Of a stretch of 64,000 bases of DNA, positions 6,171-9,440 are shown one piece after another. The notes beneath the pieces are model-generated. The model was not told where the DNA came from. It worked only from the letters and a program-made list of their open reading frames with translations, and searched no databases. The translations under genes were made by a program, and so were the position numbers. This DNA is from the human T2T-CHM13v2.0 reference genome, Homo sapiens: NCBI RefSeq assembly GCF_009914755.1, contig NC_060927.1. One strand, given 5' to 3'. The first letter of the stretch is position 1. Each line of letters begins with the position of its first letter.

Positions 6171-7730
6171 TTTACTTATCTATTCTCCAGACTTTACTTT
6201 CCTAATTGAAACCCATGCAACACACTCTGATGGAATATCTGGGATGATTTATCAGAATGAAGGGCGATTTTCTTCTTAAGAGATTCCAGGCTGCTTATGA
6301 ATGTTAGGTTGGATCATGGGATATTGGCAATATTTCACCAGTTTTGAGCTGCAGAAATGGAAATGTTACATGGTTCAACATAACAGCTAATCAATTCAGC
6401 CCATTTAATTTTCTCTGAAGGTTCAGTGTGCAGCAGAAGTGGTAGGTGAGAGATTTTGTTGACACAGCTCTGAATATGCACATAAGAATCAATAAAGTTG
6501 TGACAGCTTCCAAACTGTGGGGAAGGATGGACAAAATATCTTGAGTTGAGAAAGTTAAAATGCAGAGAATGAGTTCCTTGTTCATCCTTACATCCCTCTT
6601 GCCTACTATGATGTCTGTACAGGGGGGGTTGGTAGGGTACATCCTCAAAACTGCTAGAATGGATTTATAAAGGCAGGGTATAAACAAATAGCTAATTAAA
6701 TTAGAGATGCAGCTTTTGTCTTTGGCTCTCTCATCAATAGTGAGGTGCCTTTGGACAAGTCTCTTCACCTTTCTTGGTCTTATTTTACTCAGCTCAAAAA
6801 TGGAGAGGGGTTGCAACTAGATATTGTCCAGGCTCCCTTCCAGGTGTAATTATCAAAGCGTTTATTTCTCAGGAAGGGATTTCCTTAACATTTGGAGAGT
6901 GATTCCTGGGGTGTGATCACATCCCTCCAATGCTCATCAGTGCTGCTCTCTGAGAGGGAATCTTGGGCAGACAGTGTTGGGATCTTGCACACAGATGATC
7001 CTTTGTTGTGATGTTCTTGCCCTCTTAGTTGCCTTAGGTTCTGAGTAAAGGGATATAACGGTATGTGAGAAGGTCGTGCCAGCTTGTGTACTTGAACCTC
7101 AGTTCTGTCATTTCTATCTGCTCTCCTCTTCATTTATTGGACATATTCTTACCCCAGGATGCTGGGAGACAACTTCGTGTTCTTTAAATTTAACAGTTTA
7201 CAAAGCATGTTAAATGATACTTGCCAGCTCAGCTATAATGAGTAACCTCATTTCTGGTGACATTGGTAAGGAGAGAAACTGTAAAAATGACAACTGCATT
7301 CTCAGGACCTTTCAGAAAATCCTCATTTCTTCACAACTGGGCAGAAAATTCAGCCCTTAACCTCCCCTACTCTGTTCCTCAGCCTTAGCGGAATCCAGTT
7401 AGGAGAGTGGAAATATCTTGTGATTTTTCTTCTGAATTATCTGCCTGAAGGCTTTCTTTGATTATGTGTGGGGCTTTGTCTTTCACCTCTATGTTATTTT
7501 GATTTTCAGAACAACACCCACATGCTGCTTCTGGAAAAATGATGGTTGTTCAATTTGAAGCAATTATGTAAACAGATGTCCTAACTTCCCAGTCCATTTA
7601 AACATGCTTAGAAGCTGTGGTGCATATTGAAAAGGTTTATAAAGCCATCCATGGAGTTGTCTCAGACCTAAATAAAACTGCATTATAACATTTGGACTTT
7701 CTGTGCCTAATCCCTTTGTTAAGAAATGTC

Positions 7731-8027
7731 ACATGGACACAGGAAGGGGAATATCACACTCTGGGGACTGTGGTGGGGTCGGGGGAGGGGGGAGGGATAG
7801 CATTGGGAGATATACCTAATGCTAGATGACACATTAGTGGGTGCAGCGCACCAGCATGGCACATGTATACATATGTAACTAACCTGCACAATGTGCACAT
7901 GTACCCTAAAACTTAGAGTATAATAAAAAAAAACAAAAAAAAAACAAAAAAAAACTAAGTTTTAGAAATAATATTGACAGTATACTATATTCAAATAAAT
8001 GTTGTTAAAACATGAAAAAAAAAAAAA
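7731..8027 (+). mobile_element. 5'-truncated L1HS-Ta with 3' transduction
   Basis: ~190 bp of L1 3' UTR with the Ta diagnostics ACA (7831-7833, GATGACACATTAGTGGG) and G (7916, ACTTAGAGTA). A-tail 7925-7954, unique sequence 7955-8014, second A-tail 8015-8027. TSD aagaaatgtc at 7721-7730 and 8028-8037. Confidence 0.93.
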
Positions 8028-8085
8028 AAGAAATGTCTAATTGCCTTATGTCTCAAAAGAAGACTTCATTAGACCCATTTTTTTT

Positions 8086-9440
<1,355 letters not shown>

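What the first reader, a model, noticed from the sequence alone, without database searches (positions are those of the whole stretch)
7721..8037. Human-specific L1HS-Ta insertion carrying a 60-bp 3' transduction that barcodes its source element
Seen, in order: TSD (aagaaatgtc), 190 bp of L1 3' UTR with both Ta diagnostics, a patterned A tail (C at 7934 and 7945), non-L1 sequence ctaagttttagaaataatattgacagtatactatattcaaataaatgttgttaaaacatg with its own AATAAA (7994-7999) 15 nt before a second pure A tail, then the TSD. The site reads tt|aaga, like an L1 endonuclease target. Established: Ta is the currently active human L1 subfamily, and read-through of its weak polyA signal mobilises 3' flanks. 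Inference: a very recent, possibly polymorphic insertion whose tag identifies a donor L1 elsewhere.
Basis: partly seen in the sequence, partly recalled or inferred. Interest (0 to 1): 0.8.

Follow-up and report, generated by a model that had tools for sequence, protein, structure and literature searches.

The report
Truncated human L1 carrying donor-flank tag
This is an ordinary dead-on-arrival copy of the young human L1 retrotransposon that dragged about 60 bases of chromosome 2 along with it, and the chromosome 2 spot it came from carries no L1 in this genome.

Summary
A 10-bp target-site duplication (7721-7730 / 8028-8037) encloses four parts: 194 nt of L1 3'UTR (7731-7924), a 30-nt A tail with C at 7934 and 7945, a 60-nt non-L1 tag (7955-8014) with AATAAA at 7994-7999, and a second pure A tail.

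The L1 part is 100% identical to 27 of 29 other L1HS 3' ends fetched from the same genome. It carries ACA and G where two older copies carry GAG and A.

The decisive test was run. The tag has exactly one other copy in the assembly, on chr2:88,130,721-88,130,780, minus strand. That is single-copy DNA about 3.5 kb downstream of a gene I take to be FABP1. The homology starts just after TTTT|AAAAA and stops at the predicted cleavage site.

No L1 sits there in CHM13, and none lies within the 20 kb I fetched. So 3' transduction is strongly supported, but the donor is only inferred. It must be polymorphic, rare or lost.

I found no record of the donor. The one population table I could read lists no deletion allele of the chr3 copy, so "polymorphic" is not supported. 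This is a known mechanism and an ordinary instance.

The parts
7721..7730 (+). 5' copy of the target-site duplication (AAGAAATGTC). It is preceded by TT, so the bottom strand reads 5'-TTCTT/AA, one base off the L1 endonuclease consensus.
   Evidence: consensus 5'-TTTTT/AA as quoted in PMC7026601 (passage)
7731..7924 (+). 5'-truncated L1HS fragment made of 3'UTR only. It starts 12 nt after the ORF2 stop codon, with 2-nt microhomology (TC) to the target at the junction.
   Evidence: 100% identity to 27 of 29 other copies; upstream continuation in all 29
7831..7833 (+). ACA trinucleotide, the Ta-defining motif of the L1 3'UTR. Two older copies read GAG here.
   Evidence: PMC7026601 passages: ACA = L1Hs-Ta, ACG = pre-Ta, GAG = L1PA2 or older
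7916..7916 (+). G in CTTAGAGTA, where older copies have A. Its label as the second Ta diagnostic is recalled, not taken from a call.
7922..7927 (+). The L1's own AATAAA, which was bypassed. It is followed only by the A tail.
7925..7954 (+). Internal A-rich tail A9-C-A10-C-A9. I read it as a copy of the donor element's genomic tail. The last 5 A could equally be the start of the donor's flank.
   Evidence: the exact 41-nt end-plus-tail string is unique in the genome
7955..8014 (+). Transduced tag, 60 of 60 identical to chr2:88,130,780-88,130,721 (minus strand). The shared stretch is 7950-8022, with 72 of 73 identical.
7994..7999 (+). AATAAA used for cleavage and polyadenylation of the read-through transcript, 15 nt before the second tail.
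   Evidence: the chr2 continuation has TTATGTTG and TATGTATGTG 9-33 nt past CATG
8015..8027 (+). Second, pure poly(A) tail of 13 A. A further 2 A could belong to the tail or to the duplication, and the first 3 A could come from chr2.
8028..8037 (+). 3' copy of the target-site duplication.
7906..7965 (+). Possible RNA hairpin. The L1 end CTAAAACTTAG (7906-7916) pairs with the first 11 nt of the tag (7955-7965), looping out the L1 AATAAA and the internal tail. Its significance is unknown.

Best explanation
This is a 5'-truncated L1HS-Ta insertion made from a read-through transcript, that is, a classical L1 3' transduction.

Inferred sequence of events:
1. A full-length L1 once sat, or still sits in other people, on chr2 at T2T position ~88,130,781-785. 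It lay in minus orientation, about 3.5 kb downstream of the FABP1-like gene and on the same strand.
2. It had inserted at a TTTT|AAAAA site and had a genomic tail of about A9-C-A10-C-A9.
3. RNA polymerase II ran through the L1's own AATAAA and through that tail.
4. The transcript was cleaved 15-18 nt after the next AATAAA, 40 nt into the flank, and was polyadenylated.
5. L1 ORF2p nicked chr3 at 5'-TTCTT/AA and primed on the new poly(A).
6. It copied the tag, the old tail and only 194 nt of L1 3'UTR before the reaction ended.
7. The 5' end was joined at a 2-nt microhomology, and a 10-bp target-site duplication was left.

Shown: the anatomy, the identity of the L1 part, the single chr2 origin of the tag, the empty endonuclease-type donor site, and the end of homology at the poly(A) site.

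Inferred: the existence of the donor L1, and every step of transcription and reverse transcription.

The copy has no promoter and no ORFs, so it is inert. It lies in sense orientation in an intron of the COL6A4P2 pseudogene.
For: Anatomy:
- The order is TSD, L1 3'UTR, tail, unique DNA, AATAAA, tail, TSD.
- The TSD 10-mer occurs only at these 2 places in 64 kb.

L1 part:
- 194 of 194 identical to 27 of 29 other L1HS ends.
- ACA and G where older copies have GAG and A (PMC7026601 passages).

Origin of the tag:
- Only 2 places in the 3.1-Gb assembly: itself and chr2 (2 candidates, both scored).
- A 501-nt chr2 query is single-copy apart from the 73-nt chr3 match and a 33-nt chr12 hit.
- Direction is chr2 to chr3. 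The chr2 copy is embedded in continuous unique DNA without tails or duplications, while the chr3 copy is bounded by A tracts.

Donor-site junction:
- chr2 homology starts after TTTT|AAAAA. An A4-6 run is preceded by TTTT in only 5 of 193 cases in 20 kb of chr2, and in 55 of 1188 cases in the window.
- Homology ends at CATGAAA, 15-18 nt after AATAAA, with GU-rich motifs following in chr2.

Typicality:
- The tag length is ordinary. The median L1 transduction is 63 bp in PMC9311842 (Table 3, passage).
- In PMC12350158, 466 of 5,311 polymorphic L1 insertions carry transductions (passage).
Against: - The donor L1 itself was not seen. The chr2 site is empty in this assembly, and there is no L1 3'UTR match in chr2:88,120,001-88,140,000.
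- No other L1 in the genome carries the tag or the same tail. None of the 29 fetched copies has that tail.
- No L1 at the donor site was found in the held supplements of three call sets. Those look-ups used hg19/hg38 positions that I estimated from recalled gene coordinates.
- In the one CHM13-coordinate table, the rows that would hold a chr2:88.13 Mb insertion are cut off. The held text ends at chr2:79.6 Mb.
- A pure-A second tail of only 13-15 nt is short compared with the 17-73-nt A-rich tails (two thirds of them longer than 30 nt) of the other L1HS copies.
Confidence: 0.88

Rival explanations
1. Chimeric retrocopy made by template switching. ORF2p started reverse transcription on an unrelated polyadenylated chr2 transcript that ends at this poly(A) site, for example a read-through or intergenic RNA downstream of the FABP1-like gene. 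After about 60-65 nt it jumped onto the poly(A) tail of an L1 mRNA. No L1 ever sat on chr2.
For: - The chr2 site has no L1 in this assembly, and I found none in print or in the tables.
- The junction falls in a run of 5 A shared by both sequences. Such a run could serve as microhomology for a switch onto a poly(A) tail.
- The site lies on the same strand as, and 3.5 kb downstream of, a gene.
Against: - It needs the switch to fall by chance exactly where the chr2 sequence reads TTTT|AAAAA (2.6-4.6% of A4-6 runs).
- The internal tail carries two C. An untemplated mRNA tail should be pure A, like the second tail, whereas 7 of 29 genomic L1HS tails are interrupted.
- As far as I recall, described L1 chimeras have the L1 or other primed RNA at the 3' side and a small nuclear RNA at the 5' side, not this order.
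Confidence: 0.06
2. Relay. The tag was first picked up at chr2, but the direct parent of the chr3 copy was an intermediate full-length L1 elsewhere that already carried the tag and reused its poly(A) signal.
For: Nothing specific. It is compatible with all the anatomy. Multi-step transductions exist, for example a row with two transduced segments in PMC12350158 Table 18 (chr5-18999905).
Against: - No other copy of the tag exists in this assembly, so the intermediate would have to be absent here as well.
- It still requires the original chr2 donor.
Confidence: 0.05
3. Not a retrotransposition product. The arrangement is a chance juxtaposition, a segmental copy, or an assembly artefact.
For: None found.
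Against: - Exact 10-bp duplication precisely at both ends, unique in the window.
- Two A tracts in the right places, and a poly(A) signal at the right distance.
- Homology to chr2 limited to 73 nt.
Confidence: 0.01

Closest known systems
L1 3' transduction (partnered), as catalogued in human germline and tumour genomes
   Same: - Structure is TRUN+FOR+POLYA+TD+POLYA in the notation of PMC12350158 Table 18.
- The tag maps uniquely elsewhere.
- A downstream AATAAA was used.
- Tag length is near the published median of 63 bp (PMC9311842).
   Different: The donor element is not present at the source locus in this assembly, and I could not find it in any table I could read. It is known only from its offspring.
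L1HS-Ta 5'-truncated insertions made by target-primed reverse transcription
   Same: - Target-site duplication, endonuclease-type target, poly(A), severe 5' truncation and junction microhomology.
- The 3'UTR is identical to the modal young L1HS sequence.
   Different: It is too short to be assigned to Ta-0 or Ta-1, because the ORF positions are missing.
L1-mediated chimeric retrocopies formed by template switching (recalled from the literature, not read here)
   Same: Two RNA-derived parts lie inside one target-site duplication.
   Different: - The order of the parts is different.
- The internal tail is interrupted.
- There is an endonuclease-type site at the chr2 junction.

Membership tests
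L1HS-Ta subfamily | ACA trinucleotide in the 3'UTR (pre-Ta has ACG; L1PA2 and older have GAG) | tested here: met
   ACA at 7831-7833; two older copies read GAG. The definition is quoted from PMC7026601 passages.
L1HS-Ta subfamily | G near the 3' end (CTTAGAGTA rather than CTTAAAGTA). The label as a Ta diagnostic is recalled. | tested here: met
   G at 7916; two older copies have A. All 29 other L1HS ends share the 24-nt string that contains it.
L1HS-Ta subfamily | Ta-0 / Ta-1 assignment from ORF positions | not testable with these tools
   The fragment starts 12 nt after the ORF2 stop codon.
Endonuclease-dependent L1 insertion (TPRT) | Target-site duplication flanking the insert | tested here: met
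   10 of 10 identical, and the only 2 copies in 64 kb.
Endonuclease-dependent L1 insertion (TPRT) | Insertion at a 5'-TTTTT/AA-like site | tested here: met
   The bottom strand reads 5'-TTCTT/AA, one deviation from the consensus (consensus from PMC7026601).
Endonuclease-dependent L1 insertion (TPRT) | 3' poly(A) directly before the 3' duplication | tested here: met
   13-15 A at 8015-8029.
L1 3' transduction | A non-L1 segment between two poly(A) tracts, inside the duplication | tested here: met
   7955-8014 lies between 7925-7954 and 8015-8027.
L1 3' transduction | The segment maps to a unique locus elsewhere, and homology ends at a poly(A) site | tested here: met
   A single chr2 match. AATAAA lies 15 nt before the end of homology, and chr2 continues with GU-rich DNA.
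L1 3' transduction | At the source locus the segment lies directly 3' of a full-length L1 | tested here: inconclusive
   The site is empty in this single-haplotype assembly, but it has the TTTT|AAAAA form of a pre-integration site. Other haplotypes could not be searched, and the relevant tables were cut or unreadable.
Human-specific / polymorphic insertion | An empty allele in apes or in some humans | not testable with these tools
   No ape genome or pangenome is on hand. There is no row at chr3:132,997,xxx-132,998,xxx in the held COMPLEX and DEL blocks of PMC12350158 Table 18, which do list a neighbouring Alu deletion and partnered DEL events.

The most novel reading that the evidence does not exclude
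The donor flank on chr2 happens to begin with the exact reverse complement of the last 11 nt of the L1 body before its poly(A) signal. Read-through RNA from that donor would therefore fold an 11-bp stem (7906-7916 with 7955-7965). The stem loops out the L1's own AATAAA and the whole genomic A tail.

If this hairpin hides the weak L1 poly(A) site, it would be a locus-specific RNA-structure cause of 3' transduction. The donor would also be a 'ghost' source element, known only from its offspring: rare or lost in present-day people.
Probability: 0.08. Interest if true: 0.45.

Novelty: new member of a known kind. Interest (0 to 1): 0.2.

Why it matters
Transduced tags are the standard way to link L1 offspring to their source elements. 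This one points to a source locus at 2p11.2, downstream of the FABP1-like gene, that is empty in T2T-CHM13. If a matching L1 segregates in people, it is a germline-active element with at least one known offspring. If it does not, the chr3 copy is the only trace of a lost source. Either way this is one more data point of a well-described process, not a new mechanism. The insertion is inert and sits in a pseudogene intron.

Tried and rejected
Searches that led nowhere:
- The 23-nt tag string occurs in 0 papers.
- 'transduction + LINE-1 + source element + 2p11.2' matched 0 papers.
- 'COL6A4P2 + retrotranspos' matched 0 papers.
- One badly framed search on Ta diagnostics returned only irrelevant papers.
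- PMC7202019 gave nothing on the G position, and PMC4862182 held nothing relevant.
- Szak et al. 2003 (PMC156586) is not held.

Supplement look-ups:
- PMC12350158, supplement file 2, is cut. Table 19 (the L1 source catalogue) is not held, and the INS block of Table 18 stops at chr2:79.6 Mb. The donor site therefore could not be checked.
- The supplements of PMC9311842 and PMC13192797 are too large to read.
- PCAWG: no rows at my estimated positions.
- MELT: no rows; four files were named as not searched.
- Chuang 2021: no rows; one file was not searched.
- Those estimates rest on recalled hg19/hg38 gene coordinates and may be off by kilobases. These negatives are weak.

Ideas considered and dropped:
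- The donor is a nearby L1 with splicing or long read-through. There is no L1 3'UTR match within 20 kb, and the tail abuts the tag directly.
- The tag is part of a repeat family. The locus is single-copy.
- A sibling or parent shares the tail. The exact tail pattern is unique, after an earlier attempt that allowed 1 mismatch failed on a machine error.

Full report
**Observation**

- AAGAAATGTC is present at 7721-7730 and 8028-8037. These are the only two occurrences in the 64-kb window, against 0.29 expected; 1 of 100 shuffles reached two.
- Between the two copies lie 194 nt of L1 (7731-7924), then an A-rich tract A9-C-A10-C-A9 (7925-7954, with C at 7934 and 7945), then 60 nt of non-L1 sequence (7955-8014).
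- The non-L1 sequence has AATAAA at 7994-7999. It is followed by 13 pure A (8015-8027), plus two A that could belong to the tail or to the duplication.

**The L1 part**

- A search of the window's own 3.1-Gb assembly with 7731-7954 gave 870 first-look candidates, of which 40 were scored. Thirty of the matches became loci, one of them the window itself.
- Over the 194-nt body, 27 of the 29 other copies are 100% identical and 2 differ by one base.
- All 29 continue upstream into the end of ORF2 (...GGTGGGAATTGA ACAATGAGATC|ACATGG). The window copy therefore starts 12 nt after the ORF2 stop codon and shares 2 nt (TC) with the target at the junction.
- Aligned with two older L1 3' ends, the new copy has ACA (7831-7833) where they have GAG, and G (7916) where they have A. 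The two older ends are the inverted neighbour at 8140-8343 and one in locus L030.
- Passages of PMC7026601 state that ACA defines L1Hs-Ta, ACG defines pre-Ta, and GAG marks L1PA2 or older. They also state that L1 inserts at 5'-TTTTT/AA-like sites. That the G is the second Ta diagnostic is my recollection.
- The chr3 target reads 5'-TTCTT/AA on the bottom strand.

**The tag, the decisive test**

- Searching the whole assembly with 7946-8027 found two places only: the window itself and chr2:88,130,713-88,130,785, minus strand, at 99% identity (2 candidates, both scored).
- The tag is 60 of 60 identical to chr2. The shared stretch is 7950-8022, with 72 of 73 identical.
- A 501-nt query centred on the chr2 copy is single-copy, apart from the 73-nt chr3 match and a 33-nt hit on chr12.
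- On chr2 the tag is embedded in continuous ordinary DNA, without A tracts or duplications. In the tag's orientation it reads ...GCGTTTCTTTT|AAAAA-CTAAGTTTTAG...AACATG-AAACAAAATTATGTTG.... The direction of copying is therefore chr2 to chr3.
- Homology begins just after a TTTT|AAAAA step. An A4-6 run is preceded by TTTT in only 5 of 193 cases in 20 kb of chr2, and in 55 of 1188 cases in the window.
- Homology ends 15-18 nt after the AATAAA. chr2 carries TTATGTTG and TATGTATGTG within the next 33 nt.
- This is the expected picture for the 3' flank of an L1 that had integrated at an endonuclease site and whose transcripts ended at the next poly(A) signal.

**The donor is not there**

- In this assembly the chr2 site holds no L1.
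- chr2:88,120,001-88,140,000 has no match to the L1 3'UTR.
- No other locus carries the tag or the exact end-plus-tail string. None of the 29 other L1HS ends has that tail.
- The site lies about 3.5 kb downstream of, and on the same strand as, a fatty-acid-binding-protein gene. A Pfam Lipocalin_7 exon matches at chr2:88,137,417-88,137,593. The start and stop regions are at 88,139,261 and ~88,134,300. I name the gene FABP1 from recalled peptide motifs.
- Since L1s are not excised precisely (established knowledge, recalled), the empty site is most simply the ancestral allele. The donor is then an insertion that this haplotype never had: polymorphic, rare or lost.

**Literature and population tables**

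- I found no mention of the tag or of a 2p11.2 source element.
- PMC12350158 (passages) reports 466 transductions among 5,311 polymorphic L1 insertions in 1,019 long-read genomes, traced to 208 source L1s on CHM13 coordinates.
- Its Table 18 is held only in part. The COMPLEX and DEL blocks are there, but the INS block is cut at chr2:79.6 Mb and Table 19 is missing. The donor site could not be looked up.
- The held text has no row at chr3:132,997,xxx-132,998,xxx and no row with the TSD string. It does list an Alu deletion at chr3:132,963,257 and partnered-transduction DEL events. So this data set gives no sign that the chr3 copy is polymorphic.
- The supplements of PMC9311842 and PMC13192797 could not be read.
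- PCAWG, MELT and Chuang 2021 supplements have no rows at my estimated hg19/hg38 positions. Those estimates rest on recalled coordinates, and some files were not searched.
- The tag length is typical. The median L1 transduction is 63 bp in PMC9311842.

**Age**

- There are zero differences in 194 nt of L1, 60 nt of tag and 2 x 10 nt of duplication. That is compatible with youth, but over about 270 nt it is only a loose bound (inference).
- The stronger arguments are the Ta bases and the fact that the parent is not fixed.
- The short second tail and the absence of a listed deletion allele do not point to a very recent event.

**Rivals**

- Template switching: a switch from an unrelated chr2 transcript onto an L1 mRNA tail would give the same order of parts and needs no chr2 L1. 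It would have to hit the TTTT|AAAAA step by chance. It also leaves the two C in the internal tail unexplained, whereas 7 of 29 genomic L1HS tails are interrupted. I give it about 6%.
- Relay: a relay through an intermediate tag-bearing L1 is possible, but it needs a second absent element (about 5%).
- Chance or artefact: about 1%.

**An unexplained detail**

- The first 11 nt of the tag (CTAAGTTTTAG) are the exact reverse complement of L1 positions 7906-7916.
- In the read-through RNA this is the minimum-free-energy stem. For 146 nt the energy is -19.55 kcal/mol, z = -4.2, and 0 of 200 shuffles fold as well. The isolated hairpin is -7.85 kcal/mol.
- The stem loops out the L1's own AATAAA and the internal tail.
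- In the 29 other L1HS flanks the longest such match is 9 nt. In 20 kb of chr2, 2 of 39,960 11-mer positions match, one of them being this one.
- I saw it post hoc and it is a single case. It may be chance, or it may have favoured read-through.

**Verdict**

The transduction reading is strongly supported, and the tag does identify a donor locus. The donor element itself is absent from this genome and undocumented in what I could read. The mechanism is textbook and the insertion is inert, so interest is low.

Noticed in passing
window 7730-7953 (+) and 8120-8343 (-): The new L1 end and an older, oppositely oriented L1 3' end form a 224-nt inverted repeat. The older end has 17 of 194 mismatches and reads GAG and A at the two Ta positions. 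The repeat is 89% complementary, with 166 nt between the arms, and lies inside a COL6A4P2 intron. It could pair in the pre-mRNA.
   Followed up: partly
window 7906-7916 with 7955-7965: An 11-bp perfect stem between the L1 end and the first bases of the transduced tag encloses the L1 poly(A) signal and the internal tail. It is rare by two null counts, but it is a single case seen post hoc.
   Followed up: partly
L013 (G000:C8:79601560-79604783, minus strand), after the L1 end: Another 100%-identical L1HS end reads A20-G-A13, then 15 nt of non-A sequence, then A19. It looks like a very short second transduction or a composite tail. In all, 7 of 29 fetched L1HS tails are interrupted by a non-A base.
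   Followed up: no
L033 (G000:C2:88130001-88140000): The inferred donor site lies about 3.5 kb downstream of the stop codon of a Lipocalin_7-family gene (FABP1 by recalled motifs) and on the same strand. A donor there would be co-oriented with a highly expressed gene.
   Followed up: partly
window 7922-7927 and 7994-7999: The insertion places two sense-strand AATAAA signals in an intron of the transcribed pseudogene COL6A4P2 (hub table). Any effect on its transcripts was not examined.
   Followed up: no
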